Positions 3,449 to 20,000 are shown, counted from the stretch's first letter. The stretch: 20,000 nucleotides of DNA from an uncultured virus (IMG/VR IMGVR_UViG_3300002138_000152) (IMGVR_UViG_3300002138_000152), one strand, 5' to 3'. Numbers and translations are program-made. The notes: generated by a model from the letters alone, not told the origin.

Positions 3449-3456
3449 TTTTGATT

Positions 3457-4020: not shown

Positions 4021-4072
4021 TTGTTTTGTATTTTGTTATGCAATTATACAATTTAATTTCTATCGATAGAAA

Positions 4073-5194
4073 TTAGCGTACCAATGTTTCTAATTTAAGA
4101 ACAGCATCCATCATAGATCGTTCAAGATCAGTACTTTGTGGAATATTTAAAATATCAATATTTTCAATTTTATGAATAAATTGATTTAAACTTTCTGTAG
4201 TCTCTTCATCAAAAACTTTACAGTAATTATCTTTGGTATCCAATTCTAGTAGTTTATTTTTTATTGTAAACTTTTCTTTTATTTTTTGATCTAATTCAGT
4301 AAATTCGTTTTTAATATAACTAATAAGTTTACTTTCATGTACAATTTTGAATGCATTAATATTTGGTATAAACACAAAGAATTTATTAGTGTTCTTAATA
4401 CAAAAAAGTTCACAATATGCAGAAGCCGAAACAAATGATGCTTGATAATTGACATTAAAAAGATTCTGTATTAATGGCGCCATTAATTTACGTTCTACAT
4501 GATAATCTTCATATGAATAATATTGTGATTTATCGTCTACATCAGCATTACATGCTTCCATAAATATTTCAGACGGAATATTATAACATAGTTCACGTTT
4601 AATTTGTGATTGAAAATTATTAAATGAACCAGTTTTTTTGAAACGAAAATCATTAAAATTATCAATCAAGCAATTATAAATTGAATTTAATTGAATTGAT
4701 ACACCCATATTATAAAACGATTTTATTTGATCAAATTTCTTCGGGTCATTAATCGTGATAGAATCAATTATAAGTGATATACGTGATAATTCATCTGTAT
4801 AGTGTTTACGATGCCCTATCATCACATTCATATACGATTCACTAGTCTTTTTCTTAGCACGAAGCAAATTAAGTAAGTAATCAGTATAATACATATGAAA
4901 TTGATCAAGCTTAGTAATTAATAATTCATTATTATTCTCAAAAGCATCGTGTATAAGTTGTATTTGTGAATAAATACGATCAATAATAGATGAATTATAG
5001 TACTGTTTAAAAATAAATAGTTTTGATACTTTTTGTTTTGAATCGGTTAAGTATTTACTACGTTGTATCTTTTCACGTTCGATTGGAGTAATTTCAGGCA
5101 CTTTTTGTTGTGCTTCAGGTAATGCGCGTGTACGTGTATTGTGTTCCCAACGCATAAAGTATTTTCTGAAAAATTCCATAAATTTTTTGGACAT
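4073..5194 (-). CDS. Hypothetical protein with a possible XpaC-like N-terminal region (TelA partner)
   Basis: 373-aa ORF adjacent to telA. LDQFHMYYTDYLLNLL resembles the XpaC 'F..YYL.....L' helix. Family call is tentative. Confidence 0.45.
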   Translation of the reverse strand: MSKKFMEFFRKYFMRWEHNTRTRALPEAQQKVPEITPIEREKIQRSKYLTDSKQKVSKLFIFKQYYNSSIIDRIYSQIQLIHDAFENNNELLITKLDQFHMYYTDYLLNLLRAKKKTSESYMNVMIGHRKHYTDELSRISLIIDSITINDPKKFDQIKSFYNMGVSIQLNSIYNCLIDNFNDFRFKKTGSFNNFQSQIKRELCYNIPSEIFMEACNADVDDKSQYYSYEDYHVERKLMAPLIQNLFNVNYQASFVSASAYCELFCIKNTNKFFVFIPNINAFKIVHESKLISYIKNEFTELDQKIKEKFTIKNKLLELDTKDNYCKVFDEETTESLNQFIHKIENIDILNIPQSTDLERSMMDAVLKLETLVR

Positions 5195-5226
5195 TGTTTA
5201 ACAGATTATTTGTTTATTTTGTATTA

Positions 5227-5234
5227 CAAATATA
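5227..5234 (-). promoter_or_regulatory. Bacteroidota-type -7 promoter box (TATATTTG)
   Basis: Matches TAnnTTTG about 33 nt upstream of the ATG at 5194. TATAATTG variants occur at 4041-4048 and 7376-7383 (minus strand), upstream of terD and the PRTase. Confidence 0.55.
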
Positions 5235-5247
5235 CAAAACAAATATG

Positions 5248-5290
5248 AAAAAAAGAAAGGCTAAACAATTTGTTTAGCCTTTCTTTTTTT
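5248..5290 (-). terminator. Intrinsic terminator downstream of telA
   Basis: 21-bp inverted repeat AAAAAAAGAAAGGCTAAACAA-T-TTGTTTAGCCTTTCTTTTTTT. Confidence 0.85.
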
Positions 5291-5301
5291 TCATGTATTT
5301 A

Positions 5302-6465
5302 TTATTTACTTACAGACTCGATTTGAAGAACTGTTTTCTCCATGTTTGTTTCAAGTTGTTGCAATTCTTTATCAGCATTACGACGTGCTTGTTCACCTTC
5401 TGACTTGATTTGTTTAATATCATTCAATGTAGCAACAAGATTGTTGTGTACTGTACGAAGTGTTTCAATTTCAACAATACCCTTTTCATTTTGACGAGCA
5501 ATTTCAACACTGTTAGTTTTTAACAATTCTGAGTTATTAACCAACATTTTATTAGTTGATTCATTGACATATTGTTGAATAAGAACCATTTTGTTTTGGC
5601 GAATGAGTGCTACAGCAATTGCTACCGATTGTTTCCAAATTGGCATTGTTGTCAATACTGTTTGTTGAATCTTCTCAGCCATCATTGTGTTATTATTCAT
5701 AACCAACTTGATTTGTGGAAGAGACTGCAATGTAATGAAACGTGTAGTTGCCATATCATGTAATCGACGATCAAGACCTGTTACAAAATCACGTTTTTCA
5801 GCAATTTCATAATCTTCATAATTATCAGCATTTGAAACCATTTCGTTAAGTTCATCGTCATGTTGTTCTTTTGAAAGATGACCAATAATTAACAACTCAT
5901 CAAGAGCGTGTACTTGTTTCACATTATCTTCAAAAAGCTTAGATAATTTCACATTATCATCAGTAATAGAAAGACGACCGAGTTCAAGTTTACGAATAAT
6001 AGTATCAACATTTCCTGAAACATCATCAAATTGATTCATGATTTTTTTAGCATTGAAAACTAAGCTACTAACTCCAGGAATTTTCATTAACATACGACGA
6101 AGTGGAGAAACTTTTGATGGATCAATATCAATTCGTTCCATTTTTCCAATAAGATCTGTAATAGTCCCACCAATTTCACCAGCATCAAATGCTTTAACAT
6201 TCTGTAAAAATGCAGTAGATGAAGCTGAAAGATTTTTCTGAACTTCAATACCATAATTCATAATTGCTGCTGGATCTTTTGTTGAAAGAGCTGTTGCTTT
6301 TTCAAGATACATTTCACGTTGTTCAGGTGTAAGTGCAGCAATTTTAATATTCCCTGTTGTCTTATCCTGTTGAAGAATGGACACATTCGCTTTTTTAGTT
6401 GTTGATTTAGATGTTTCAACTACTTCAGCATATGGTGTTACTTCTGTTTTTTTTTTGGTTCCCAT
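5302..6465 (-). CDS. telA: TelA/KlaA toxic anion resistance family protein
   Basis: IMNYG.EVQ, AGEIGGTITDL, LDRRLHDM...R....QSLPQIKLV..NN..MAEKIQ.....TMPIWK, IVEIETL; coiled-coil character. Confidence 0.9.
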   Translation of the reverse strand: MGTKKKTEVTPYAEVVETSKSTTKKANVSILQQDKTTGNIKIAALTPEQREMYLEKATALSTKDPAAIMNYGIEVQKNLSASSTAFLQNVKAFDAGEIGGTITDLIGKMERIDIDPSKVSPLRRMLMKIPGVSSLVFNAKKIMNQFDDVSGNVDTIIRKLELGRLSITDDNVKLSKLFEDNVKQVHALDELLIIGHLSKEQHDDELNEMVSNADNYEDYEIAEKRDFVTGLDRRLHDMATTRFITLQSLPQIKLVMNNNTMMAEKIQQTVLTTMPIWKQSVAIAVALIRQNKMVLIQQYVNESTNKMLVNNSELLKTNSVEIARQNEKGIVEIETLRTVHNNLVATLNDIKQIKSEGEQARRNADKELQQLETNMEKTVLQIESVSK

Positions 6466-6481
6466 GTTTTTTGGATATTTG

Positions 6482-7345
6482 TTATGTTGTTTGTAATTCT
6501 AAAATTAAAGCATTTTTTTTCGCAGCATCACGCATGATACTGAAATTTTTACTATAAGCTGGATTTTTGTAATAACCTTCACCAAGCGACATGCGGTAAA
6601 TAGTTTTTACTAAATTAAGATTAATTGATTGCATCAAATATTCGACATCAGATGCTGATTTCCATCCAAGAATCATTTTTGCTGTGCGAACGATAACTTG
6701 ATAATCACTATCATTTTCAATCAATGTTTTAAGGTCAGACAATTTTTCAATGAATGCTGAATTTAAATATGATTCAATAGTTGGATCTTCTTCTGGATTT
6801 AAAAGTTCTGCATAATAAACACACATACAGTTTGATTTGTCAACACCGTATGATGTTACCATTTCTTCAATTTTTTTCTGATGTGTACCAGTGATGAAGA
6901 TGTCATCAATAAAGATAATGAACTTGTCTTTACAGTATTCAGCATCAAATGTAAAACAGTCTTGCTCAAGAAGTTTTACACGTTTTTTTAATGACACTTT
7001 ACCGTAATCTGCAATGTATGGTAAATGACGATTGATTTTAGTGCGATGAATAAAATTACCATTCATCTCTGAAATTAATTCATTAAGACGACTAATAAAC
7101 TCATCAGTAATTAGTGATGCTGCATTACGCATATATTGATATGCTGATTCAGTTACAACAAGTTGTTTACTGTACAATAATTCGTAATATTTATTGTAGA
7201 ATGCTTCAGCTAGTTCTCGTCCGAACTGTTTACCAACAGTTCCACTTCCGTATTTTAAACGTGAATAATCTTCAATTGAAAATCGAATAGATTCTCTATT
7301 AGAAAATTGATGCAAAGAAAAGCGGTCTATTGAAAGATCGTGCAT
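6482..7345 (-). CDS. Ter-associated phosphoribosyltransferase (ComF-like/PRTase_3 type)
   Basis: PRPP-binding loop FIDDIFITGTH, YSRLKYG...FG.ELA and DPTIESYLN; lies next to telA/terD. Confidence 0.75.
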   Translation of the reverse strand: MHDLSIDRFSLHQFSNRESIRFSIEDYSRLKYGSGTVGKQFGRELAEAFYNKYYELLYSKQLVVTESAYQYMRNAASLITDEFISRLNELISEMNGNFIHRTKINRHLPYIADYGKVSLKKRVKLLEQDCFTFDAEYCKDKFIIFIDDIFITGTHQKKIEEMVTSYGVDKSNCMCVYYAELLNPEEDPTIESYLNSAFIEKLSDLKTLIENDSDYQVIVRTAKMILGWKSASDVEYLMQSINLNLVKTIYRMSLGEGYYKNPAYSKNFSIMRDAAKKNALILELQTT

Positions 7346-9512: not shown

Positions 9513-9701
9513 ATGGACATAGCCAAGTACCTCAAGAAGGGCGGTGTAATAGTTAAATCTGTTACCCAGGACAAGATAACGGTGGAATACGAGGGATCAG
9601 CTGAACACACATTTGATGTGAATGATATTGAAAAATATTTGTTCATCTGTTTATTGGATTACATTAAGGAAGAAATCGTAGAAAAGGAGACACATGAATA
9701 A
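9513..9701 (+). CDS. Small hypothetical protein
   Basis: ATG at 9513 (MDIAKYLKKGG...); overlaps the start of the sigma-factor gene. Confidence 0.6.
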   Translation: MDIAKYLKKGGVIVKSVTQDKITVEYEGSAEHTFDVNDIEKYLFICLLDYIKEEIVEKETHE

Positions 9702-10251
9702 GCAGGTCAACCAAACACTAGAAAGACCTTTACAACAAACTACTCACGAAATACACAAAAATAAATACACATACAACGATCTACTTACATATGTTCCAGA
9801 TCTGAAACGATTTGTAAAGTCTAAGATTAAAACTGATTGGTGGCAAGATGTGGTTCAAGATACGCTCACGTATCTGTTTATCAAGTTTAAATCAATTCTA
9901 ATAGACAATATAAAAGGATTGGTGATAAACACCGCCACAATGTTTATACGCAAACACAATGAGCGTATGATTAAAGATAGATTAACCGAAGAATTGGTGC
10001 CTGAGAAGTCATATTCACAGAAGCCAACTGTTCAATACCATAAGTTTGAAGTATTTGGTTACAATACAGCAATCATCACAGATCGCTTGTTAGAAAATTT
10101 ACGGACGGTATCGTCCAACTTCATGGAACCATTCAACATGCAATTGAATGACATGAGTATAAAAGAGATAGCCACTGAACTATCGATACCAGAAAACACA
10201 GTGAAAACACGAATAAACAGGTGCAAGAAATACCTGAAAGAAGGATTATAA
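9694..10251 (+). CDS. ECF-like sigma-70 family RNA polymerase sigma factor
   Basis: Region 2-like LKRFV...DVVQDT and region 4 HTH MSIKEIATELSIPENTVKTRINRCKKYL. Confidence 0.85.
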   Translation: MNKQVNQTLERPLQQTTHEIHKNKYTYNDLLTYVPDLKRFVKSKIKTDWWQDVVQDTLTYLFIKFKSILIDNIKGLVINTATMFIRKHNERMIKDRLTEELVPEKSYSQKPTVQYHKFEVFGYNTAIITDRLLENLRTVSSNFMEPFNMQLNDMSIKEIATELSIPENTVKTRINRCKKYLKEGL

Positions 10252-10252
10252 T

Positions 10253-11119
10253 ATGAGTAAGAAACAAGAATTAAAAGATGCGTTAGGGCAGCGCATGAAG
10301 GCTTACGAGGAAGAAACTAGAACTTTCCTTGAACCAAAGAAACCAACAATCATGCGATTAGATGGAAAAGCTTTTCATACTTATACCCAACAGTTTAAAA
10401 AACCATTTGATCCAGTACTGATCAATACAATGGATCAAACAGCGATTTATCTTTGTAGTAAAATTCAAGGTGCACAATTTGCTTTTGTTCAAAGTGATGA
10501 AATTACAATTTTTCTTTCTGATGAAATGAGTGATGAAGCACAACTATGGTATGATGGAAATGTTCAAAAAATGACTTCTATATCAGCATCAATGGCTGCG
10601 GCAAAATTTAATCATTTACGTTTTTTAGATACACTTCTTTCTATAACTGGAGTTGATGAAAGAACAATGGGTGCAAGATATAATCATATTGAGCGTGAAG
10701 ATATTTTAGTTCCTATGGCACTTGCTGAATTTGATTCACGTGTATTTCAGGTTCCTGATTATCAAGAAGTTGTAAATAATTTTCTTTGGAGACAAGAGGA
10801 TTGTCGCAAAAATAGCATCTCATCGGTCGCTCAAAACATTTTTTCACCAAAACAATTGGACAAGAAAAACAGTGATGTTAAACTAGTAATGTGTGCTGAA
10901 GCTGGTGATCCATGGGAAGCGTATGATCCTAAATTAAAATGGGGTAGATTTATTCAAAAAGAAACATATATCACGGACATACCATACATGCGTGATGGTG
11001 TTCAACACATTGCTGAGAATGTAACACGAACACGTTGGGTGTCAACAGAATGTCCACTTTTCCGTGAAGATAAAGAATTTATTCTTTCACGTCTTAATTC
11101 AATTAAACAAAAGAAATAA
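10253..11119 (+). CDS. thg1: Thg1-like tRNA(His) guanylyltransferase / 3'-5' RNA polymerase
   Basis: RMKAYE, IMRLDGKAFHTYT, KPFD, QSDEITI, QKM.SISAS, FDSRVF, WRQEDC.KNSIS. Confidence 0.92.
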   Translation: MSKKQELKDALGQRMKAYEEETRTFLEPKKPTIMRLDGKAFHTYTQQFKKPFDPVLINTMDQTAIYLCSKIQGAQFAFVQSDEITIFLSDEMSDEAQLWYDGNVQKMTSISASMAAAKFNHLRFLDTLLSITGVDERTMGARYNHIEREDILVPMALAEFDSRVFQVPDYQEVVNNFLWRQEDCRKNSISSVAQNIFSPKQLDKKNSDVKLVMCAEAGDPWEAYDPKLKWGRFIQKETYITDIPYMRDGVQHIAENVTRTRWVSTECPLFREDKEFILSRLNSIKQKK

Positions 11120-14061: not shown

Positions 14062-14232
14062 ATGAGTACAACTGAAATCTACGCAGAATTGTCTAAGCTA
14101 TGGGCTGAATTTGACGCTGCACACAACGGAACCAAAAAACGCAATCGTGCAGATGCTCGTAAAGCATTAGGTGAGATGAAAAAATTAATCACTCCATACC
14201 GTCAAGCATCTGTTGAAGAAACAAAAGCGTAA
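14062..14232 (+). CDS. Hc1-like (histone H1-like) small basic protein
   Basis: 56 aa. G.K.....ARKALGEMKKL...YR..S.E resembles the short Bacteroidota/phage Hc1-family proteins. Confidence 0.65.
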   Translation: MSTTEIYAELSKLWAEFDAAHNGTKKRNRADARKALGEMKKLITPYRQASVEETKA

Positions 14233-14333
14233 AAAAATTAAAAAAAACGCAAAATATTTTTTTATTTGAAAAATGATGCGTATTATTGCATCATAATCAA
14301 AAAGGGAAACAAAATTTACAATATATAAATCAA

Positions 14334-14408
14334 ATGAAGAAATTTACAAACATAGCAACATCTGAGTATCGTAACGATGCTGTCGAACCCGATCAAAACT
14401 TGGGCTGA
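14334..14408 (+). CDS. Putative attenuator leader peptide 1 (MKKFTNIATSEYRNDAVEPDQNLG)
   Basis: 24-codon ORF. Consecutive GAA CCC GAT CAA (E-P-D-Q, 14385-14396) match the downstream tRNA specificities, and the 3' end overlaps the antiterminator strand. Confidence 0.65.
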   Translation: MKKFTNIATSEYRNDAVEPDQNLG

Positions 14409-14479
14409 TATTGTTATGCATTGATTTATCATATTAAAGTATAACTTTGAGGCCCGAATTTAAGATTCGGGCTTTTTTT
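14400..14479 (+). terminator. Attenuator 1: intrinsic terminator with an overlapping antiterminator
   Basis: Terminator AGGCCCGAAT-ttaag-ATTCGGGCTT plus T-tract (14450-14479). Alternative pairings are TTGGGCT (14400-14406) with GGCCCGA (14451-14457) and GTTATGC (14413-14419) with GTATAAC (14439-14445). Confidence 0.75.
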
Positions 14480-14483
14480 ATTT

Positions 14484-14556
14484 CGTGCTGTAGATCAGTT
14501 GGTAGATTGGGGAGTTTGGGACTCTCAGGCCGCAAGTTCGAGTCTTGCCAGTGCGA
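14484..14556 (+). tRNA. tRNA-Pro(TGG)
   Basis: Cloverleaf: CGTGCTG/CAGTGCG acceptor, GGGAG-ttTGGga-CTCTC, GCAAG-TTCGAGT-CTTGC, C1-G72 and A73. No encoded CCA. Confidence 0.85.
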
Positions 14557-14564
14557 CGAAATAA

Positions 14565-14635
14565 CGAGAGTGTGGTGTAATGGTAGCACATGGTGTTTGG
14601 GTCACTAGAGAACGGTTCGAGTCCGGCACTTTCGA
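14565..14635 (+). tRNA. tRNA-Pro(TGG), atypical (8-bp acceptor, short T-stem)
   Basis: CGAGAGTG/CACTTTCG, TGGTG-ttTGGgt-CACTA, CGG-TTCGAGT-CCG. Confidence 0.65.
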
Positions 14636-14644
14636 CAATTGAAA

Positions 14645-14720
14645 CGAGATTTTACAGTAAGGCGGAAAACTGGTAACATAGTGGCTATGTGTAAGGTTGG
14701 TTCGAATCCAACAATTTCGA
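14645..14720 (+). tRNA. tRNA-Pro(TGG)-like RNA with an aberrant anticodon arm
   Basis: CGAGATT/AATTTCG acceptor and perfect T arm GTTGG-TTCGAAT-CCAAC. The anticodon arm ACATAG-TGG-CTATGT lacks U33. Confidence 0.5.
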
Positions 14721-14749
14721 CAAAAAGAAAACGTTCTTTAAATTAAAAT

Positions 14750-14823
14750 GTTCCGTTAGTGAAGTTGGTTAACACGTCTCACTTTCCATGAGAAGATCAT
14801 CGGTTCGAATCCGATACGGAATA
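14750..14823 (+). tRNA. tRNA-Glu(TTC), with unusual C37
   Basis: GTTCCGT/ACGGAAT, TCTCA-ctTTCca-TGAGA, ATCGG-TTCGAAT-CCGAT. Confidence 0.75.
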
Positions 14824-14908
14824 CTACGGTCAAAGTGATGTAGATCAGTCTAACTGATTGAAAGTATAGTACAATACTAGGTTTATTCCCATCATTCCCT
14901 GACCATAA

Positions 14909-14980
14909 CGCCCGTTGGTCAAGTGGTTAAGACGCATCCCTTTCACGGATGAGTCACGAGTTCGATTCTCGTACGGGTGA
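14909..14980 (+). tRNA. tRNA-Glu(TTC)
   Basis: CGCCCGT/ACGGGTG, CATCC-ctTTCac-GGATG, ACGAG-TTCGATT-CTCGT. Confidence 0.88.
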
Positions 14981-14981
14981 C

Positions 14982-15668
14982 ATGAAGCAATGTGAAAATT
15001 GTAATAATAATCACAACGGTGATTATGGAAGTGGTAGATTCTGCTCAAGCAAATGTGCTAGAGGTTTCTCTACCAAAGATAAACGTTCTTTGATAAATGA
15101 AAAGGTGAGTAAAAAATTATCTTTTGTTCCTGTTCTTATTAAAAATTGTGCTCAATGTAATATTGTTTTTGATACAAAAAATGTAAAACAACTTTATTGT
15201 TCAAAATCGTGTGGTGCTAGTGCGACATCAAAAGGTTGGACAAATCATTCTAAAATTGATTGGAGTAGTATACATAGAGAAGCATATAAAAATGGAAACA
15301 ATTATGTTGCTGGTGGTACATGTAAATGGATTGAAATAACTACTAGTAACGGTTTAATTAAAGTTCAAGGTTCATATGAAGTTAGAGTTGTTAAAATTCT
15401 TGAGCAATGGAAAATAAAGGGTAAAATAATTAATTGGCAATACTCACCAACAAGATTTAAATACTATGATGAAAATCATATTGAACGAACATATTTAATA
15501 GATTTTCTTGTTATTGAAAATAATAAAATGTGGTATTTAGAAGTTAAAGGTTATACACAAGCTAAAGATTTATTAAAATGGAAAGCTGTTAACGATCTTA
15601 AACATCATCTTGTTGTTTGGCACCTTGATCAAATTAAAGAAAATGAAAAACACACCTTGGAGGTCTAA
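14982..15668 (+). CDS. Free-standing homing-endonuclease-like protein (Cys zinc-finger repeats plus a TnsA-like PD-(D/E)XK domain)
   Basis: Likely start is ATG 14982, because the track start lies inside tRNA-Glu. CENC...FCSSKCA and CAQC...YCSKSC, then GSYE...YLIDFLV...YLEVKGY...KW. Confidence 0.75.
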   Translation: MKQCENCNNNHNGDYGSGRFCSSKCARGFSTKDKRSLINEKVSKKLSFVPVLIKNCAQCNIVFDTKNVKQLYCSKSCGASATSKGWTNHSKIDWSSIHREAYKNGNNYVAGGTCKWIEITTSNGLIKVQGSYEVRVVKILEQWKIKGKIINWQYSPTRFKYYDENHIERTYLIDFLVIENNKMWYLEVKGYTQAKDLLKWKAVNDLKHHLVVWHLDQIKENEKHTLEV

Positions 15669-15728
15669 TGGTTAGGACATCCGCCTGTCACGCGGAAATT
15701 CAAGCGGGTTCGACTCCCGTTCGGGGTG
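15654..15728 (+). tRNA. tRNA-Asp(GTC)
   Basis: TCCGC-ctGTCac-GCGGA, GCGGG-TTCGACT-CCCGT, G73. The 5' end overlaps the last codons of the endonuclease ORF. Confidence 0.8.
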
Positions 15729-15736
15729 CAATAAAA

Positions 15737-15801
15737 CAAGGGATAGTGTATGGTAACATACATGACTGTCTATGTTGGGTTCGAGTTCAACATGTGGTGC
15801 A
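15737..15801 (+). pseudogene. Degenerate tRNA-Asp(GTC)-like remnant
   Basis: D-arm-like GTGT-atggta-ACAT, loop CTGTCTA and GGTTCGAG T-loop are present, but the 3' anticodon strand and acceptor pairing are lost. Boundaries approximate. Confidence 0.45.
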
Positions 15802-15831
15802 AAAGACAGAAAAGTCTATAAAATGAAATTT

Positions 15832-15904
15832 AGTCTCGGCGTATAATGGCTGGTACATCCGACTGTCTATCGGAGTTTAGAGGGTTCGATTCCCTTCGGG
15901 ACCG
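15832..15904 (+). tRNA. tRNA-Asp(GTC)
   Basis: GTCTCG/CGGGAC acceptor (1-72 mismatch), TCCGA-ctGTCta-TCGGA, GAGGG-TTCGATT-CCCTT, G73. Confidence 0.75.
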
Positions 15905-16028
15905 CAGTAATTGGGTTGTGAATTCACAGGCTGTAACCTGTAATAGTAGCAATGTGTTACATGTGGAATGTGAGTAAAAAGTCTAAGTAGTGTTACAGCG
16001 CAAAATGACTTTCAAAGCAAGAAATATT

Positions 16029-16097
16029 TCGGTTTAGGTGTAGTGGTGCACGGCCTGCGTTGAGCAGGACGGTTCGGTTCGATTCCGACATACTGAT
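16029..16097 (+). tRNA. tRNA-Gln(TTG)-like, atypical (G33)
   Basis: U1-A72 acceptor TCGGTTT/ATACTGA, D arm GTGT-agtggt-GCAC, CCTG-cgTTGag-CAGG, TCGG-TTCGATT-CCGA. Confidence 0.55.
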
Positions 16098-16125
16098 CAA
16101 AAGAATTGATTAAAAATTAAGAAAA

Positions 16126-16221
16126 ATGAAAACAATTGCGGTAAATAATCAGGTAATGCTTATCACCACTCCAACGAGTGTTAGCTATTACTATTATCTA
16201 TACTTATTGAGGAATCGATGA
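16126..16221 (+). CDS. Putative attenuator leader peptide 2, Tyr-rich (MKTIAVNNQVMLITTPTSVSYYYYLYLLRNR)
   Basis: 31-codon ORF with TAT TAC TAT TAT CTA TAC at 16186-16203, directly upstream of a terminator and four tRNA-Tyr genes. Confidence 0.8.
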   Translation: MKTIAVNNQVMLITTPTSVSYYYYLYLLRNR

Positions 16222-16279
16222 GACCGTAATTGTATTGCACAATTTTAAGTCCTGTTGATTCATTCAGCAGGACTTTTTT
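16212..16279 (+). terminator. Attenuator 2: intrinsic terminator with an overlapping antiterminator
   Basis: Terminator AAGTCCTGTTGA-ttcat-TCAGCAGGACTT plus T-tract (16247-16279). Alternative pairing of GAATCGATGAGAC (16212-16224) with GTCCTGTTGATTC (16249-16261) gives 12/13 pairs including G-U and encloses AATTGT/ACAATT. Confidence 0.8.
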
Positions 16280-16284
16280 ATTAT

Positions 16285-16367
16285 CCGGACGTATGCAAGA
16301 GGCTAAAGCAGAATGACTGTAAATCATTTCTCTTCGGAGTTCGTAGGTTCGAATCCTACCGGCCGGA
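16285..16367 (+). tRNA. tRNA-Tyr(GTA), long variable arm, C1-G72
   Basis: AATGA-ctGTAaa-TCATT, variable arm CTC-TTCG-GAG, GTAGG-TTCGAAT-CCTAC, A73. Confidence 0.88.
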
Positions 16368-16379
16368 CAAAACATACAT

Positions 16380-16460
16380 GCCAGTATGTGCGAGTGGTTA
16401 ATGCAGCCGATCTGTAAAATCGGTCCTTTGGGTTCGTAGGTTCAAATCCTACTGCTGGCA
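16380..16460 (+). tRNA. tRNA-Tyr(GTA)
   Basis: GCCAGTA/TGCTGGC, CCGAT-ctGTAaa-ATCGG, GTAGG-TTCAAAT-CCTAC, A73. Confidence 0.9.
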
Positions 16461-16470
16461 CAATTTTAAT

Positions 16471-16540
16471 GGAAGAGAACGGGCGGAAGCCAGGTCTGTA
16501 AAACCTTTGCTAGTGAGTTCGATACCCACCTTTTCCACCA
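16471..16540 (+). tRNA. tRNA-Tyr(GTA)-like, reduced D and variable arms, encoded CCA
   Basis: GGAAGAG/CTTTTCC-A-CCA, AGGT-ctGTAaa-ACCT, imperfect T arm. Confidence 0.6.
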
Positions 16541-16547
16541 ATAACAT

Positions 16548-16661
16548 AGGGGAGTTAAAATGTTGGATTCAATGTGTTCTGTTTTAAGAACACTCACAGC
16601 AAAACTCAAATAACACAAACTGTAAATTTGTATAACGTAGGTTCGATTCCTACCTTCCCTA
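16548..16661 (+). tRNA. tRNA-Tyr(GTA)-like RNA with a greatly expanded D-arm region
   Basis: AGGGGAG/CTTCCCT, ACAAA-ctGTAaa-TTTGT, GTAGG-TTCGATT-CCTAC; about 60 nt between the acceptor and anticodon arms. Confidence 0.55.
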
Positions 16662-16702
16662 CTTTTCTGTAGTTCTTTATTTGTGTGTATATTTGATGTA
16701 TT

Positions 16703-17284
16703 ATGAGAAAAGATTCGCATTATAGACACAAGTATCATCATCAACAACAATTAATGGCTAGAAAACAATCTACAGTAATTGATTTTTCTGATACAAATTG
16801 CCTTATTGACAATATGGTAACAATGATAAATCCTACTGAACAGCTTACAGAACATACTATGGTGGAAAAAACCGTTTTTAATGATTGTGAAATTGATGAT
16901 ATTATTAATTCAAAAAAATCAAGTACAGCAATTAAAATACTTGCTACAGGATATAATAAACAAGAGAATCAACCAAGTATTAATTTGAGAAAAAAGAAAA
17001 AACTTGATAACTTTGAATTACGTAAAGATATTGTACATAATGAAAAAAATCTTACTTTAGAGTACAATATTTATTTACGAGATATAAAAATTGGTGTTAT
17101 TAAACCATATTTTATATCTGATAAAGAACATGTTTATACTAGTGATGTGCGAGTATTTTTTATATCTAAATTTCCATCTGTTATTACTAATATAAGTGAT
17201 TCAAATATCGATATGTTGTTAAAACGTCTTAAAACTAATATTGAAATGATACGTGATTTTATTCGTTTATTTGAATCTGATTAA
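16703..17284 (+). CDS. Hypothetical protein (start may be ATG 16754)
   Basis: Long ORF downstream of a TATATTTG box; no motif recognised. Confidence 0.6.
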   Translation: MRKDSHYRHKYHHQQQLMARKQSTVIDFSDTNCLIDNMVTMINPTEQLTEHTMVEKTVFNDCEIDDIINSKKSSTAIKILATGYNKQENQPSINLRKKKKLDNFELRKDIVHNEKNLTLEYNIYLRDIKIGVIKPYFISDKEHVYTSDVRVFFISKFPSVITNISDSNIDMLLKRLKTNIEMIRDFIRLFESD

Positions 17285-17367
17285 ACAAAATATTGATTTT
17301 CAATATAATATATAACAATATTATGTAATTGTGAAAAATAAAATACAATTATTAAACTTTTTAGATC

Positions 17368-17976
17368 ATGGAAATACGTGCGTATATAGTTGAGCGAGTT
17401 AAAAAAAATTCATTACCAATTGACATTGATCAGTGTCTTGATACAATTAAATCATATAGATTAGTTTATCCAGATGTTAATGATGAAAAACTTTTCTTTT
17501 ATTACATTTTAAATAGAGTTGGTAGTATTTTATCAGCGATTGATATGGAGCAAGCTGAGCATCTTGGTTGGCTTCGTGTTAGAGGACGTGATTCAATTAC
17601 ATTCTATGAATTTGAAGAAGAAGAAGATTACTATGCATGGCTTGCAGTACGTCCATTTTTTTATAAAAATATTAAAGATTACGATGATATTCGTATCTTG
17701 AATTTCCTTGATTTAAGTATCATTAATTATATTCATGACATTGAATCAAAACGTACCTATCATCTAATCAAACCAGCTACACCAAATGATGTAAAAATTA
17801 TACAAAAAACTGGATATGGTACAGATCAGATATCAAGTAAGAAATGGACATTCTTACGTCGTTTAATGAATATTCTCTTAAACAGAAAAGTAGGGCGTAA
17901 CGATAAGCAGTCTTTTATTAAATATATGGCTGCACAATTCACAAACGGTTACATATTTATTCCAGAAGCATCATAA
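17368..17976 (+). CDS. Hypothetical protein
   Basis: 202-aa ORF; no motif recognised. Confidence 0.6.
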   Translation: MEIRAYIVERVKKNSLPIDIDQCLDTIKSYRLVYPDVNDEKLFFYYILNRVGSILSAIDMEQAEHLGWLRVRGRDSITFYEFEEEEDYYAWLAVRPFFYKNIKDYDDIRILNFLDLSIINYIHDIESKRTYHLIKPATPNDVKIIQKTGYGTDQISSKKWTFLRRLMNILLNRKVGRNDKQSFIKYMAAQFTNGYIFIPEAS

Positions 17977-18004
17977 ATTAAAATATTTTTACTATATTCG
18001 TGAC

Positions 18005-18619
18005 ATGTTATTAATAGGAGACGTTCACGGTAAAGTCGATCAGTATTTTAAATTGATTGAAAACTATAATGGTAAATCTGTTCAAGTCGGTGATTTTGGA
18101 TTTAAGAAACACCATGATAAATTAATAGATAATCTGTCTATCAATAAAGACGATCACAAAATTTTATTTGGTAATCATGATTATTATCCATATGTTAATG
18201 CTCAACATAGTATTGGTGATTATGGAATGCATGAAGGTATGTTTTGTGTTCGTGGCGCAAAATCAATTGATCAACACAGACGTACTGAAGGTCTTGATTG
18301 GTTTCCTGAAGAAGAACTCACTTATCGTCAATTTGGTGAAATGATTGATATGTATGAACAATTAAAACCTGATATTGTTGTATCACATACTTGCCCAACA
18401 AGTGTAGCTCAATCTCTTTACGGTTATTATAATACAGGTAAAGCTGCTGACCGTTCGATTACATCTGATTCATTAGATGTAATGTTTGAAATACATAAAC
18501 CTAAAATATGGGTATTTGGACACCATCATAAGAGTAAAGATATTACAATAATGGACACACGTTTTATATGTCTTGAAGAATTAGAAACTGTTGAACTTAA
18601 AACACTTTTAAATGAATAA
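18005..18619 (+). CDS. Calcineurin-like metallophosphoesterase
   Basis: GDVHG, GDFG, GNHD, SH, FGHHH. Confidence 0.9.
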   Translation: MLLIGDVHGKVDQYFKLIENYNGKSVQVGDFGFKKHHDKLIDNLSINKDDHKILFGNHDYYPYVNAQHSIGDYGMHEGMFCVRGAKSIDQHRRTEGLDWFPEEELTYRQFGEMIDMYEQLKPDIVVSHTCPTSVAQSLYGYYNTGKAADRSITSDSLDVMFEIHKPKIWVFGHHHKSKDITIMDTRFICLEELETVELKTLLNE

Positions 18620-19505
18620 GCAAGAACTAATCAAATTTACAAAAAATCTTCGTGCGTTTGATGCACTATATGTGTATGCTGCCAAATTAAGACTCATTAA
18701 TGAATTTTTTACTAAAGAGAATCTTAATGCATGTGTTTTAGGATTGTCTGGCGGTGTAGATTCAAGTCTCGTATACAAAATGTTTCTTGATGCATCAAAA
18801 CAACCTGGAAGTCCTTTAAAATGTGTTATGGGTTGTTTTATGCCTATTTATTCAAATGGTATAACTGGTCAAGATAGTGCATTAATGCATGTTGGTGAAT
18901 TAATAAATGTGTGTCGTTTCTCAGATGCATTCCAATTCAGAATGATAGATCTCAGTGAAGCATCAAAAGCATATAACACCGTTGTAGTACGTGATACAAA
19001 GGATTCAAATTGGTTACAAGGCCAAATAGATTCTATTGTACGTACACCAGCTCTTTACGGAATGGCTGCAAAATTACAGCATGAAGGATTTAAATCAATA
19101 GTTATCGGTACAACAAACCGTGATGAAGGTGCATATATTGGATTTTTCGGAAAAGCAAGTGATGGTATGGTTGATCTTCAACCAATTGGTGATTTGCATA
19201 AATCAGAAGTTTACGCTCTTGCTGAACTCTGTGGAGTTCCACAATCGATCATTAATCGTAAACCTATGGGCGATGTTCATGATGCAAAAACAGATGAAGA
19301 AATGATTGGTGCACCATATGAAATATTAGAAGCTTATACAATCCTTTTAGAGCTTGGTTTGCATGATCAAATTCAAAATCTTTACTTGAATCCTGAATTT
19401 AAAACGTATATCGATAATATCGAAAAGATTCACAAACATAATGCACATAAATATAAAGTTGGATCTCCAGCTCGATACATTGACGTCATGGAACGTAATG
19501 TGTAA
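18612..19505 (+). CDS. nadE: NH3-dependent NAD+ synthetase
   Basis: PP-loop LGLSGGVDSS, R...LY, GTTNRDE...GFFGK.SDG..D.QPIGDLHKSEVY.LA, TDEE.IG..Y, HK. Confidence 0.88.
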   Translation: MNKQELIKFTKNLRAFDALYVYAAKLRLINEFFTKENLNACVLGLSGGVDSSLVYKMFLDASKQPGSPLKCVMGCFMPIYSNGITGQDSALMHVGELINVCRFSDAFQFRMIDLSEASKAYNTVVVRDTKDSNWLQGQIDSIVRTPALYGMAAKLQHEGFKSIVIGTTNRDEGAYIGFFGKASDGMVDLQPIGDLHKSEVYALAELCGVPQSIINRKPMGDVHDAKTDEEMIGAPYEILEAYTILLELGLHDQIQNLYLNPEFKTYIDNIEKIHKHNAHKYKVGSPARYIDVMERNV

Positions 19506-19540
19506 TTTTTTTACTATATTTACAGTATAAAATATTGATT

Positions 19541-20000
19541 ATGTTTTCATTCTTCAAAAAAAAACGTGTATTTGCTGAATTAGTACCACAAGTTTATTTC
19601 AGACATACTTACAATTGTAATACGTTGCAGAAAGAAGATTTTATAAACGGATTTGGAATTAATACAAATCTTCTACGTAAAGTTATTGATGCTAAAGGTA
19701 TCAAACGTATCAAACGTGAGCAATATGATAATCGTATTGGATACTACATTACTGGTGAAAAAATTAACACAAGAATTCATCCTTTGCATTCAAAACGATT
19801 ATTGAATACAAAAACGGGAAAGCGCTACGTCATTGATACAATTACTTACTGTCATTGGTATGGTGAATATGTTTCTTTAATGGTTCGCGTAGAAGGAAGT
19901 AAATCTCATAAAGAGGTATTATGGGAAAACATTTCATGTCATTATGAGGATTTTGTAAATGATATTGAAGAAAACAGAAAACTTTATACACTCATTGATG
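19541..20000 (+). CDS. Hypothetical protein (3' truncated by window edge)
   Basis: Open frame from ATG 19541 (MFSFFKKKRVFAELVPQVYFRHTYNC...) to the end of the window. Confidence 0.65.
   Translation, partial: MFSFFKKKRVFAELVPQVYFRHTYNCNTLQKEDFINGFGINTNLLRKVIDAKGIKRIKREQYDNRIGYYITGEKINTRIHPLHSKRLLNTKTGKRYVIDTITYCHWYGEYVSLMVRVEGSKSHKEVLWENISCHYEDFVNDIEENRKLYTLID

What the first reader, a model, noticed from the sequence alone, without database searches (positions are those of the whole stretch)
14334..16097. Leader peptide whose E-P-D-Q codons match the downstream Pro/Glu/Asp/Gln tRNA array
Seen in sequence: a 24-codon leader ending V-E-P-D-Q-N-L-G*. The tRNAs between this terminator and the next leader are only Pro x3, Glu x2, Asp x2 (plus a remnant) and Gln x1, exactly those four amino acids. 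A classical segment layout is visible: protector CCCGA (14388-14392)/TTGGG (14400-14404), antiterminator TTGGGCT/GGCCCGA extended by GTTATGC/GTATAAC, and terminator 14450-14479. Inference: a multi-input tRNA-depletion sensor using single codons instead of runs. Caveats: the D and Q codons lie close enough to 14400 that a stalled ribosome could also mask the antiterminator, so sensing may rest on E/P or the earlier GAG/GAT codons. CCC is not the Watson-Crick codon for TGG, and the Gln call is atypical.
Basis: partly seen in the sequence, partly recalled or inferred. Interest (0 to 1): 0.85.

Follow-up and report, generated by a model that had tools for sequence, protein, structure and literature searches.

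The report
Codon-matched attenuators gating phage tRNA genes
A giant phage puts a tiny translated test gene and a transcription stop signal in front of its tRNA genes, apparently so that a set of tRNAs is made only when the cell runs short of those same tRNAs.

Summary
The sequence features are real. There is a 24-codon ORF (14334-14408), a strong intrinsic terminator (14451-14479) that abuts tRNA-Pro, and a mutually exclusive antiterminator (-22 kcal/mol, z -5.9). Standard callers confirm Pro x2, Glu x2 and Asp x2. They do not confirm the third Pro, the Asp remnant or the Gln.

Taken alone, the codon match of this leader is weak (5 of 23 codons, P 0.03-0.3 depending on background). Relatives decide the case. 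In the window plus five huge-phage genomes, 30 leader+terminator+tRNA units show leader codons tracking the downstream tRNA species. The observed count is 336 of 806 codons against 138 +/- 16 for shuffled pairings (0 of 20000 shuffles as high). The match appears only in the ATG frame. Matching codons peak 12-35 nt upstream of the antiterminator.

The pattern replicates in 15 further viral contigs. The same architecture precedes phage AspRS and AsnRS genes and a LeuRS-like gene. A second window leader (YYYYLY) gates two tRNA-Tyr genes.

Best reading: classical ribosome-stalling attenuation applied to phage tRNA genes. In this leader D15, E18 and P19 (perhaps Y12) are well placed. D20 and Q21 are too close to the antiterminator, and Q21 is Arg in three related strains. 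Ten literature searches found no earlier description. No expression data exist.

The parts
14304..14328 (+). Promoter-like motif (GGGA ... ATATATA at 14321-14327), 6 nt before the leader ATG. The transcript may be leaderless or nearly so (inference).
   Evidence: ATATATA lies within 50 nt upstream of the ATG in 20 of 30 leaders, against 123 of 5847 background 50-nt windows. The upstream regions are aligned by eye. No transcription start data exist.
14334..14408 (+). Leader ORF, 24 codons: MKKFTNIATSEYRNDAVEPDQNLG*. Candidate sensing codons are E11 GAG 14364, Y12 TAT 14367, D15 GAT 14376, E18 GAA 14385 and P19 CCC 14388. D20 (14391) and Q21 (14394) are too close to region 2.
   Evidence: The 5' third is homologous to the Glu/Tyr leaders of two relatives. 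The ORF is kept open in related-strain contigs, with F4 synonymous, N14Y and Q21R changes.
14351..14392 (+). Region 1 (anti-antiterminator). 14351-14358 pairs with 14411-14418 and CCCGA 14388-14392 pairs with UUGGG 14400-14404, which sequesters region 2 when no ribosome is stalled.
   Evidence: MFE of 14334-14482 is -39.2 kcal/mol, z -3.6. The same pairing appears in the fold of 14334-14450.
14400..14457 (+). Antiterminator. Region 2 (14400-14419) pairs with region 3 (14440-14457). It overlaps the last two sense codons, the stop codon and the terminator's 5' arm.
   Evidence: -22.0 kcal/mol, z -5.9. The only strain change inside its stems (14457 A>G) keeps pairing as G-U.
14451..14483 (+). Intrinsic terminator: hairpin 14451-14473, then a U-tract (TTTTTTTATTT) that runs up to the first base of tRNA-Pro.
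   Evidence: In 3 related-strain contigs 14473 T>C turns a G-U into a G-C closing pair.
14484..14636 (+). Two tRNA-Pro(TGG) genes (14484-14557, 14565-14636).
   Evidence: ARAGORN; Infernal 56.0 and 38.7 bits.
14645..14721 (+). The anticodon is ambiguous and it is probably a decayed copy.
   Evidence: 20.9 bits, below the cut-off of 29. Relaxed ARAGORN calls Ala(GGC). Absent in strain X5. Alignment A2.
14750..14981 (+). Two tRNA-Glu(TTC) genes (14750-14824, 14909-14981).
   Evidence: 64.1 and 62.7 bits.
14982..15668 (+). Endonuclease-like ORF inserted in the array, between Glu and Asp. Probably a homing-type insertion and not part of the sensor.
   Evidence: Weak PHROG endonuclease hit (phrog_945, E 8e-5) and a sub-threshold TnsA-like N-terminal Pfam hit. 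A related strain (X6) has 302 other letters in place of 795 nt here.
15654..15905 (+). Two tRNA-Asp(GTC) genes (15654-15729, 15832-15905). An uncalled tRNA-like remnant lies between them (about 15738-15810).
   Evidence: 47.2 and 37.4 bits. The remnant is not called by either tool.
16029..16098 (+). Atypical Gln(TTG)-like element. Its function is doubtful.
   Evidence: Found only by ARAGORN at -ps90. No Infernal tRNA match. The T-arm is conserved but the anticodon arm is aberrant in alignment A1.
16126..16221 (+). Second leader ORF, MKTIAVNNQVMLITTPTSVSYYYYLYLLRNR*. Five Tyr codons lie at 16186-16203. It has no ATATATA motif, so it probably gates read-through from the first unit (inference).
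   Evidence: 5 of 30 codons against 1.0 expected; P 0.008 against the window's own proteins.
16203..16283 (+). Alternative structures of the second attenuator. Region 1 is 16203-16210 and region 2 is 16212-16222. The terminator is 16247-16275 plus a U-tract. The antiterminator pairs 16212-16220 with 16253-16261.
   Evidence: (-14.7 kcal/mol antiterminator; terminator within an MFE of -50.3, z -7.0).
16285..16461 (+). Two tRNA-Tyr(GTA) genes (16285-16368, 16380-16461).
   Evidence: 49.0 and 53.9 bits.

Best explanation
The window comes from a huge phage of a Bacteroidota-type host. Its tRNA array is gated by two classical ribosome-mediated (leader-peptide) transcription attenuators.

Proposed mechanism for unit 1. 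Transcription starts at a phage promoter-like ATATATA motif and the 24-codon leader is translated at once. If the ribosome runs to the stop codon (14406-14408), it covers region 2 (14400-14419). The terminator (14451-14479) then forms and RNA polymerase stops 4 nt before tRNA-Pro. If instead the ribosome stalls for want of a charged tRNA at codons 12-35 nt upstream of region 2 (D15, E18, P19, possibly Y12), it holds region 1 open and leaves region 2 free. The antiterminator forms and the Pro, Glu and Asp tRNA genes are transcribed.

A second, Tyr-specific gate (YYYYLY) controls the two tRNA-Tyr genes further down.

The result would be a negative-feedback supply circuit. A block of phage tRNAs is made when exactly those charged tRNAs are short, and shut off once they are replenished.

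What is shown and what is inferred. Shown by computation: the parts, the alternative folds, and the family-wide tracking of tRNA identity by leader codons with the right frame and position. Inferred: translation of the ORF, the direction of the switch, the promoter, and the physiological trigger.
For: 1. Anatomy in the window. ORF, terminator, antiterminator and protector are all present. There is no room for a promoter between the terminator and the first tRNA (4 nt).

2. Relatives. The closest GenBank phages by the UvsX-like protein are five 462-735 kb uncultured phages. In their tRNA arrays plus the window I examined 46 strong terminators. Thirty have an ATG ORF ending 10-60 nt upstream and at least one tRNA downstream.

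3. Codon tracking. Leader codons whose amino acid is in the downstream block number 336 of 806. Random re-pairing gives 137.9 +/- 15.9 (z 12.4, 0 of 20000 as high). Within-genome re-pairing gives 147.0 +/- 21.6 (0 of 20000). In every genome the true pairing is the single best permutation: 1/5040, 1/720, 1/5040, 1/120, 1/6, 1/2. Examples: QQQQQQQ -> Gln x4; MKTIAMIIRMRIIRPKMLG -> Arg, Ile, Met; LSLCLSLSLSL -> Leu/Ser/Cys.

4. Frame. 41.7% of codons match in the ATG frame, against 12-21% in the other five frames.

5. Position. The matching fraction is 0.65-0.79 at 12-35 nt upstream of the antiterminator 5' strand. It is <=0.22 from the start of the antiterminator strand onward (with 0.35 in the 6-11 nt bin just upstream of it) and <=0.24 beyond 48 nt. 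This is what a stalled-ribosome switch needs.

6. Codon level. 296 of 336 matching codons are readable by anticodons called in the block under simple wobble rules. ATA goes with Ile(TAT), ATT with Ile(GAT), AGA with Arg(TCT), and CGN with Arg(ACG/TCG).

7. Antiterminators. In 26 of 30 units at least 5 nt of the terminator 5' arm pair with the ORF's 3' end or stop region. Mean z is -3.4 against shuffles.

8. Replication. A Gln-unit pattern scan of viral contigs gave 80 fetched hits. Nineteen end in a tRNA and 15 of those are tRNA-Gln. The other units in those 15 contigs, which were not selected on content, give 109 of 445 against 60.0 +/- 9.3 (z 5.3, 0 of 20000). This uses 15 units after dropping 2 identical peptides from 17.

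9. aaRS genes. The same leader+terminator architecture precedes phage aaRS genes with cognate codons. KLKDD..D..D precedes aspartate-tRNA(Asn) ligase (469 bits, cut-off 353). NNRNR precedes asparagine-tRNA ligase (TIGR00457 394.5 bits, cut-off 342.6). ILLLPL precedes a LeuRS-like gene that scores below its cut-off.

10. Membership of this leader. It shares the family's N-terminal pattern (M-K-x-x-x-N-I) and promoter-like motif. It is homologous to the Glu/Tyr leaders of two relatives.

11. Strain variants. Related-strain contigs keep the ORF open and the stems intact.
Against: - There is no expression, termination or ribosome data of any kind. No RNA run is listed as holding the region.
- For this leader alone the codon match is weak. 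It gives P 0.31 (whole leader) and 0.12 (3 of 8 codons in the 12-35 nt zone) against the window's own protein composition.
- D20 and Q21 are too close to region 2. Q21 is Arg in 3 of 3 related-strain contigs. The Gln tRNA is doubtful.
- CCC is not a simple-wobble codon for anticodon UGG. Across the 30 units, 3 of 9 Pro codons are in this position. Fifteen of 28 matching Ser codons are not readable by the called Ser anticodons.
- Four of 30 units show no antiterminator by my simple test.
- The Pro/Asp leader family shows a conserved antiterminator helix (94% of cells paired) but no compensatory double changes.
- I chose the terminator and ORF thresholds after seeing the first listing. I then applied them uniformly and dropped no unit by hand.
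- Homologous units in different genomes are not independent. The within-genome permutations and the replication set address this only partly.
- tRNA blocks rest on ARAGORN calls, and these phages carry many atypical tRNAs that it misses.
Confidence: 0.75

Rival explanations
1. Relic or generic gate. Unit 1 keeps the attenuator architecture, but in this phage its codon set has decayed after array rearrangements (endonuclease insertion, pseudo-tRNAs, Tyr split off behind its own leader). It would now respond to any slowing of translation, or terminate at a fixed rate, rather than reporting Pro/Glu/Asp tRNA levels specifically.
For: The match is weak in this leader alone (5 of 23 codons; P 0.31 against window proteins). 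Only 3 of 8 codons in the sensing zone match, against 65-79% typical of the family. The array shows decay and insertion. The stop codon lies 42 nt from the stem, against about 18-34 nt in most units.
Against: E, D and P codons are retained in all related-strain contigs, while Q21 and N14 changed. The ratio of observed to expected matches (5 against 1.7) is within the family range. Relative to its Glu/Tyr-leader homologues, this leader has D and P codons and its block has Asp and Pro tRNAs.
Confidence: 0.13
2. Punctuation only. The hairpin at 14451-14479 simply ends an upstream transcript. The 24-codon ORF is a chance open frame in A/T-rich DNA, and the tRNAs are expressed by unregulated read-through or processing.
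For: Short ORFs are common in 31% G+C DNA (one search lists 92 ORFs of at least 40 aa). The single-leader statistics are weak. No expression data exist.
Against: It does not explain the family-wide, frame-specific and position-specific tracking of tRNA identity. It does not explain the strong antiterminator that overlaps the stop codon. It does not explain the shared N-terminal and promoter-like motifs or the same design in front of aaRS genes.
Confidence: 0.05
3. Ribosome-independent sensing. The leader RNA displays codons that pair directly with tRNA anticodons (T-box-like), and tRNA binding rather than ribosome stalling selects between terminator and antiterminator.
For: The controlled genes are tRNAs and aaRS genes, the classical T-box regulon type. 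Codon identity matters.
Against: No T-box or other Rfam family reaches its threshold. The codons are phased with an ATG and an in-frame stop, with no stops in frame 0 against 76 and 91 in the other two forward frames. Up to seven amino acids are represented in one leader. The leaders are only about 75-130 nt long, with no specifier-loop architecture.
Confidence: 0.03
4. The short ORFs encode small proteins with a function of their own. Their composition resembles the neighbouring tRNAs for another reason, for example selection for efficient translation by the phage's own tRNAs.
For: The conserved N-terminal pattern M-K-[TN]-[IL]-x-N-I.
Against: The peptides have no conserved body beyond the first residues. 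Homopolymer or alternating runs (QQQQQQQ, SLSLSLSL, GTGTGTGT) change with the block. Every ORF ends a fixed short distance before a terminator that its own 3' end can disrupt.
Confidence: 0.04

Closest known systems
Leader-peptide (ribosome-mediated) transcription attenuators of amino-acid operons: trpL, hisL, leuL, pheL, and the multi-amino-acid thrL and ilvL/ivbL (recalled textbook knowledge)
   Same: A short translated ORF carries regulatory codons. Three alternative pairings (1:2, 2:3, 3:4) end in an intrinsic terminator. The stop codon sits next to region 2. Multi-amino-acid sensing already exists in thrL and ilvL.
   Different: The regulated genes here are tRNA genes, so the product is the very molecule being sensed rather than the amino acid. 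The elements are in phage genomes and occur many times per genome. The codon sets hold up to seven amino acids and are rewritten in step with the block's tRNA content, down to the codon box. There is no Shine-Dalgarno sequence. No Rfam leader family matches (Trp_leader E 6.1).
Leader-peptide attenuators of aminoacyl-tRNA synthetase genes: E. coli pheST/pheM (recalled); His leader upstream of hisS paralogues in bacilli (PMC2965389, passages seen)
   Same: Translation-supply genes are controlled by cognate codons in a leader. The relatives examined here have the same design in front of AspRS and AsnRS genes and a LeuRS-like gene.
   Different: Those are cellular, single-amino-acid systems. None is described for tRNA genes: that paper has 0 occurrences of 'tRNA gene' or 'tRNA operon'.
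T-box riboswitches
   Same: They sense the tRNA charging state and choose between terminator and antiterminator. They control translation-supply genes.
   Different: A T-box binds tRNA directly through a large conserved leader with one specifier codon. Here there is no T-box match, and the codons are in an ATG-phased ORF.
tRNA arrays of large phages, including the >634 kb huge phages predicted to infect Bacteroidetes (PMC7162821, passages seen)
   Same: Large phage-borne tRNA sets. The closest relatives of the window are GenBank records of 462-735 kb; the four largest, 634-735 kb, have lengths consistent with those genomes.
   Different: That paper's main text has 0 occurrences of attenuat-, leader or terminator. 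Regulation of the arrays is not described there.

Membership tests
Ribosome-mediated leader-peptide transcription attenuator | Short ORF with a start codon at the 5' end of the regulated transcript | tested here: met
   ATG at 14334, 24 codons. An A-rich, SD-less upstream region like the window's other genes. A promoter-like ATATATA motif lies 6 nt upstream. Translation itself is not shown.
Ribosome-mediated leader-peptide transcription attenuator | Intrinsic terminator between the leader ORF and the regulated genes | tested here: met
   14451-14479, -13.8 kcal/mol, with a 7-T run. The first tRNA starts 4 nt after the U-tract.
Ribosome-mediated leader-peptide transcription attenuator | Mutually exclusive antiterminator that uses the terminator's 5' arm, and an upstream segment that can sequester it | tested here: met
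   Antiterminator -22.0 kcal/mol, z -5.9. The 1:2 pairing is present in the MFE. Family-wide, 26 of 30 units show an antiterminator.
Ribosome-mediated leader-peptide transcription attenuator | Regulatory codons cognate to the regulated function and enriched beyond chance | tested here: inconclusive
   The family level is clearly met (336 of 806 against 138 +/- 16; replication z 5.3). This leader alone gives 5 of 23, P 0.026 against leader composition and 0.31 against window proteins.
Ribosome-mediated leader-peptide transcription attenuator | Regulatory codons placed so that a stalled ribosome frees the antiterminator while a terminating ribosome blocks it | tested here: met
   D15, E18 and P19 lie 24, 15 and 12 nt from region 2, inside the family's 12-35 nt zone. 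The stop codon lies inside region 2. D20 and Q21 (9 and 6 nt) fall outside the zone.
Ribosome-mediated leader-peptide transcription attenuator | Read-through responds to supply of the cognate charged tRNA and depends on leader translation | not testable with these tools
   No RNA run is listed as holding the region. No cultured relative was found.
T-box riboswitch (Rfam RF00230, accession recalled) | Conserved Stem I / specifier loop and T-box sequence detectable by the covariance model | tested here: not met
   No T-box match at gathering score over the whole window, nor at E<=10 in 14200-16800.
Curated Rfam amino-acid operon leaders (Trp_leader and others) | Match to the family covariance model at gathering score | tested here: not met
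   Only chance-level hits: Trp_leader 16.6 bits (cut-off 41, E 6.1), trpB motif E 5.2, and rli60 26.6 bits (cut-off 60, E 1.1) on the Tyr leader.

The most novel reading that the evidence does not exclude
Huge phages carry a modular, codon-addressed homeostat for the whole translation supply. Every tRNA block and several aaRS genes sit behind their own leader. Each leader's codon set is rewritten whenever the block's content changes. This would let the phage detect, isoacceptor by isoacceptor, when the host's charged tRNAs are destroyed or exhausted, for example by anticodon-nuclease defences or by host shut-off. It would then answer by making only the replacements that are needed. On this reading it is a built-in sensor-and-repair circuit against tRNA-targeting immunity.
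Probability: 0.3. Interest if true: 0.93.

Novelty: new variant of a known kind. Interest (0 to 1): 0.86.

Why it matters
Phage tRNA genes are usually discussed as constitutive cargo, for codon-usage compensation or as replacements for tRNAs lost to host defences. If these leaders work as the sequence logic indicates, several things follow.

- Huge phages meter each group of tRNAs, and some tRNA synthetases, by direct feedback from the ribosome.
- As far as ten full-text searches show, this would be the first case of leader-peptide attenuation controlling tRNA genes.
- It would also be the most combinatorial use of the mechanism, with up to seven amino acids read by one leader.
- It gives a sequence-only way to predict which tRNAs belong to one transcription unit.
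- It offers dozens of natural codon-specific switches for Bacteroidota-type hosts.
- It gives a concrete, testable link between phage tRNA arrays and tRNA-depleting stress.

The co-variation of leader codons with tRNA content is also an unusually clean natural experiment on how attenuators evolve.

Tried and rejected
- Direct relatives of the region. Megablast and blastn of the array region against GenBank phages gave nothing, or only tRNA-sized hits.
- Neighbouring proteins. Protein-guided searches with the flanking 134-aa and 193-aa proteins found only a fragment of the same phage in viral contigs and nothing in metagenome contigs.
- Own assembly. It is not held. The nearest record, G001, overlaps only 16592-20000 and has no tRNA.
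- RNA evidence. No RNA holder is listed. The one run guessed to be RNA (X19, 'probably DNA') lays only short pieces, almost all tRNA-sized and none on the leader.
- Rfam. Nothing beyond tRNAs at gathering score. Sub-threshold leader or sRNA hits are at chance level.
- Covariation. The Pro/Asp-leader alignment A3 gives a conserved antiterminator helix but 0 pairs with double-sided changes. Column-wise pair counting on the three-sequence alignment A4 was uninformative because of indels. By eye the window's region 2 (TTGGGCT) sits at the same columns as the relatives' AGTCAGAC, and each is complementary to its own terminator arm.
- Host-type promoter. The consensus TTTG...TAnnTTTG (recalled from memory) is present upstream of 5 of 30 leaders, and I did not see it upstream of leader 1.
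- Cultured phages. blastn of a conserved Pro/Asp leader against GenBank phages found only two of the same uncultured genomes.
- Cellular genomes. The Gln-unit pattern gave 120 stretches in bacterial and archaeal genomes, and 0 end in tRNA-Gln.
- The alternative ORF 14377-14424 was set aside because it is shorter and out of the family frame.


Full report
WHAT IS IN THE WINDOW

The 24-codon ORF is at 14334-14408 and reads MKKFTNIATSEYRNDAVEPDQNLG*.

- A hairpin at 14451-14473 (-13.8 kcal/mol) with a seven-T run follows it. Three methods find the hairpin.
- The U-tract runs up to the first base of tRNA-Pro (14484).
Its energy is -22.0 kcal/mol against -8.7 +/- 2.3 for shuffles (z -5.9).
- In the full-length fold, region 2 is held instead by upstream leader sequence: 14351-14358 with 14411-14418, and CCCGA with UUGGG.

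ARAGORN and Infernal agree on Pro(TGG) x2, Glu(TTC) x2 and Asp(GTC) x2, then Tyr(GTA) x2.

- The 'third Pro' scores 20.9 bits, under the cut-off of 29. Relaxed ARAGORN reads it as Ala(GGC), and one related strain lacks it.
- The 'Asp remnant' is not called by either tool.
- The 'Gln' appears only at ARAGORN's -ps90 setting and has no Infernal tRNA match.

A second unit lies just outside the finding. ORF 16126-16221 reads MKTIAVNNQVMLITTPTSVSYYYYLYLLRNR*. A strong terminator at 16247-16275 follows it, and then the two tRNA-Tyr genes. Its folds give a textbook layout. Region 1 (16203-16210) lies just after the Tyr codons. Region 2 (16212-16222) spans the stop codon. The antiterminator pairs 16212-16220 with 16253-16261.

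CONTEXT

- The window is 31% G+C.
- Its genes have A-rich upstream regions without Shine-Dalgarno sequences.
- It encodes an RNA ligase, TerD/TelA, a UvsX-like recombinase, a sigma-like factor, a Thg1-like enzyme and NAD synthase.
- Its own assembly is not held. A 33-kb viral fragment (G001) overlaps only 16592-20000.
- The closest GenBank phages by the UvsX-like protein are uncultured phages of 462-735 kb, at about 36-51% identity.
- The lengths of the four largest (634-735 kb) are consistent with the >634 kb genomes that PMC7162821 predicts to infect Bacteroidetes (passages seen).

THE COMPARATIVE TEST

I fetched the tRNA-array regions of those five genomes. On every locus I listed ARAGORN tRNAs, hairpin+T-run terminators and short ATG ORFs.

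Short ORFs ending about 18-47 nt before a strong terminator precede tRNA blocks again and again, and their composition mirrors the block:

| Leader | Downstream tRNAs |
|---|---|
| MTTSFQQQQQQQINRTD | Gln x4 |
| MKTIAMIIRMRIIRPKMLG | Arg, Ile, Met |
| MKAMILSLCLSLSLSLQK... | Leu, Leu, Ser, Cys, Ser, Ser, Leu, Leu |
| MKTKKQQYKQYQPQYK... | Tyr, Tyr, Gln, Lys x4 |
| ...FTPAPAVAFRRGTGTGTGTCVPAGCG... | Arg, Thr, Val, Ala, Gly, Pro |
| MKAISVHIIHIWEHLLEEV... | His, Glu, Val, Trp |

I then applied fixed rules:

- terminator dG <= -10;
- the longest ATG ORF of 6-70 codons whose stop lies 10-60 nt before the stem;
- block = the tRNAs up to the next strong terminator.

I set these rules, applied them uniformly and removed no unit by hand.

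Of 46 terminators, 30 have both a leader and at least one tRNA. Ten have no such ORF, and six have an ORF but no tRNA.

- Permutation test. Leader codons whose amino acid is in the block number 336 of 806. Global re-pairing gives 137.9 +/- 15.9 (z 12.4, 0 of 20000). Re-pairing within genomes gives 147.0 +/- 21.6 (0 of 20000). In each genome the real pairing is the unique best permutation: 1/5040, 1/720, 1/5040, 1/120, 1/6, and 1/2 for the window.
- Frame. The signal exists only in the ATG frame, at 41.7% against 12-21% in the other five frames.
- Codon level. 296 of 336 matching codons are readable by the block's called anticodons. ATA goes with Ile(TAT), ATT with Ile(GAT), AGA with Arg(TCT) and CGN with Arg(ACG/TCG). 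Ser is the main exception, with 15 of 28 not readable.
- Position. Matching codons are 65-79% of all codons at 12-35 nt upstream of the antiterminator's 5' strand. They are <=22% from the start of that strand onward (35% in the 6-11 nt bin just upstream of it) and <=24% beyond 48 nt. This is where a stalled ribosome would mask region 1 but not region 2.
- Antiterminators. One involving at least 5 nt of the terminator's 5' arm and the ORF's 3' end is found in 26 of 30 units. Mean z is -3.4 against shuffles.

REPLICATION AND SPREAD

I scanned viral contigs with a pattern for a Gln-codon run, then a T-run, then a tRNA T-loop.

- The scan gave 99 stretches, of which 80 were fetched.
- Nineteen end inside a tRNA, and 15 of those are tRNA-Gln.
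- In those 15 contigs, 17 further units were not selected on content (15 after dropping identical peptides). They give 109 of 445 against 60.0 +/- 9.3 (z 5.3, 0 of 20000).
- Collapsing seven similar Pro/Asp units to one still gives z 4.0.
- The same pattern in bacterial and archaeal genomes gave 120 stretches, none ending in tRNA-Gln.

LEADERS IN FRONT OF aaRS GENES

Four of the six leader+terminator units without a tRNA were followed up.

- Three precede phage aminoacyl-tRNA synthetase genes with fitting codons.
  - MRKIIKLKDDRYLWTDCLAD precedes aspartate-tRNA(Asn) ligase (469 bits, cut-off 353).
  - MKTMTINNRNRLTDII precedes asparagine-tRNA ligase (TIGR00457, 394.5 bits against a cut-off of 342.6), followed by a weak ArgRS-like ORF.
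  - MINNNVNILLLPLT precedes a LeuRS-like ORF that scores below its cut-off.
- The fourth precedes small ORFs, an RNA-ligase-like ORF and a HisRS-like fragment.

This ties the architecture to the known logic of aaRS leader attenuators.

WHAT THIS MEANS FOR THE LEADER IN THE FINDING

Evidence that it belongs to the family:

- It has the N-terminal pattern M-K-x-x-x-N-I.
- The ATATATA motif lies 6 nt before its ATG. The motif is present in 20 of 30 leaders against 2.1% of background windows.
- Its 5' third aligns with the Glu/Tyr leaders of two relatives.

Its own codon match is modest. Five of 23 codons are D, E or P, against 1.7 expected from leader composition. That gives P 0.026 on that background but 0.31 against the window's proteins.

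Distances of its codons to region 2 (14400):

| Codon | Distance (nt) |
|---|---|
| E11 | 36 |
| Y12 | 33 |
| D15 | 24 |
| E18 | 15 |
| P19 | 12 |
| D20 | 9 |
| Q21 | 6 |

D15, E18 and P19 are well placed, and D20 and Q21 are not. Y12 is well placed too. Tyr tRNAs lie downstream behind the second gate, which has no promoter-like motif of its own. Leader 1 may therefore gate the whole array, with leader 2 adding a Tyr-specific check (inference).

Contigs of related strains in three coded runs (X1, X5, X6) cover the leader:

- The ORF stays open.
- F4 changes synonymously.
- N14 becomes Y in one strain.
- Q21 becomes R (CAA>CGA) in all three.
- 14457 A>G keeps both alternative pairings as G-U.
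- 14473 T>C turns a G-U closing pair of the terminator into G-C.

The recurrent P-Q-P-Q...D-Q-D-P-D motif of Pro/Asp leaders in relatives suggests that the window's P-D-Q is a remnant of that type, joined to a Glu/Tyr-type 5' half (inference).

MECHANISM AND RIVALS

The best-supported model is classical attenuation. Rapid translation to the stop codon blocks region 2 and the terminator forms. A stall in the sensing zone frees region 2, the antiterminator forms and the tRNA genes are transcribed. Because the products are the sensed tRNAs, the circuit is a negative feedback on supply.

The trigger is inferred. It could be codon-usage mismatch, host shut-off or tRNA-cleaving defence. The RNA ligase and Thg1-like genes in the window fit a tRNA-repair theme but prove nothing.

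Rivals and my weights for them:

- a decayed or generic gate in this particular phage (0.13);
- mere transcript punctuation with a chance ORF (0.05);
- T-box-like ribosome-free sensing (0.03);
- small proteins with their own function (0.04).

COMPARISON AND NOVELTY

It works like the trp, his, thr and ilv leaders and like aaRS leader attenuators. It meets the structural membership criteria tested here. It matches no curated Rfam leader or T-box.

What differs from the known cases:

- The targets are tRNA genes, and the elements are in phage genomes.
- One genome carries many units, and single leaders hold up to seven amino acids.
- Leader codons are rewritten in step with the tRNA content of the block.

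Ten full-text searches found no description of leader-peptide control of tRNA genes or arrays. I saw only listings and abstracts, plus passages of PMC7162821 and PMC2965389. Subscription journals and supplements were not searched.

I file it as a new variant of a known kind.

LIMITS

Everything here is computational.

- There are no transcript, ribosome or reporter data.
- tRNA blocks depend on ARAGORN calls in genomes rich in atypical tRNAs.
- Units of related genomes share ancestry.
- The antiterminator support is thermodynamic and recurrent rather than covariation-based. There were 0 compensatory pairs in the one alignable family.

Noticed in passing
window 16126-16461: A second, clearer attenuator. 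Leader MKTIAVNNQVMLITTPTSVSYYYYLYLLRNR* is followed by terminator 16247-16275 and then two tRNA-Tyr(GTA) genes. It has textbook 1:2 / 2:3 / 3:4 pairings and no promoter-like motif of its own.
   Followed up: yes
L008 7215-8641; L020 5376-7899; L021 567-2100; L003 8215-10015: In the relatives the same leader+terminator design precedes phage aminoacyl-tRNA synthetase genes with fitting codons. D-rich precedes AspRS(Asn), N/R-rich precedes AsnRS plus an ArgRS-like ORF, and L-rich precedes a LeuRS-like ORF. One case is unclear, near a HisRS-like fragment.
   Followed up: partly
window 14321-14327 and upstream of 20 of 30 leaders in relatives: A conserved ATATATA motif lies 5-35 nt before leader start codons. 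It is possibly a promoter for a phage sigma factor, and the window encodes a sigma-like protein at 9694-10251. In many units the spacing would give leaderless or near-leaderless mRNAs. Some first-in-array leaders also carry TTTG...TAnnTTTG further upstream (5 of 30).
   Followed up: partly
window 14982-15668: An endonuclease-like ORF (weak PHROG endonuclease and TnsA-like hits) is inserted between tRNA-Glu and tRNA-Asp. A related strain has unrelated, shorter sequence there. It looks like a homing-type insertion in the array.
   Followed up: partly
L030 2586-2739; L033 5280-5348; L100 (first tRNA after leader at 31): tRNAs with stop-codon anticodons (CTA, labelled 'Pyl' by ARAGORN, and TTA, labelled 'Stop') occur in relatives' arrays. 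They may be suppressor tRNAs, which hints at stop-codon recoding in some of these phages.
   Followed up: no
window 1137-2339 and 10253-11119: An RNA ligase and a Thg1-like tRNA-His guanylyltransferase are encoded near the array. tRNA-repair-type enzymes alongside regulated tRNA genes fit a response to tRNA damage, but this was not tested.
   Followed up: no
window 2873-7345: A minus-strand cluster of UPF0114, TerD, an unassigned 373-aa ORF (4073-5194), TelA and a ComF-like PRTase, i.e. tellurite-resistance-type genes, in a phage genome.
   Followed up: no
L003 4160-4215: A mini-leader MKTKRKYKR* with a hairpin but no clear T-run sits inside a Phe/His block, just before three tRNA-Lys genes. 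My terminator rule did not count it, so internal gates may be more numerous than the 30 units scored.
   Followed up: no
L027 2510-2605 versus L018 2381-2476, L003 3487-3573 and L013 2170-2253: Homologous His/Phe leaders differ in step with their blocks. K-rich versions precede Lys tRNAs. The version with only two K codons (one of them at position 2) precedes none. The version with an SSSS run precedes a block that contains a tRNA-Ser. This suggests co-evolution, but it was not tested on a tree.
   Followed up: no
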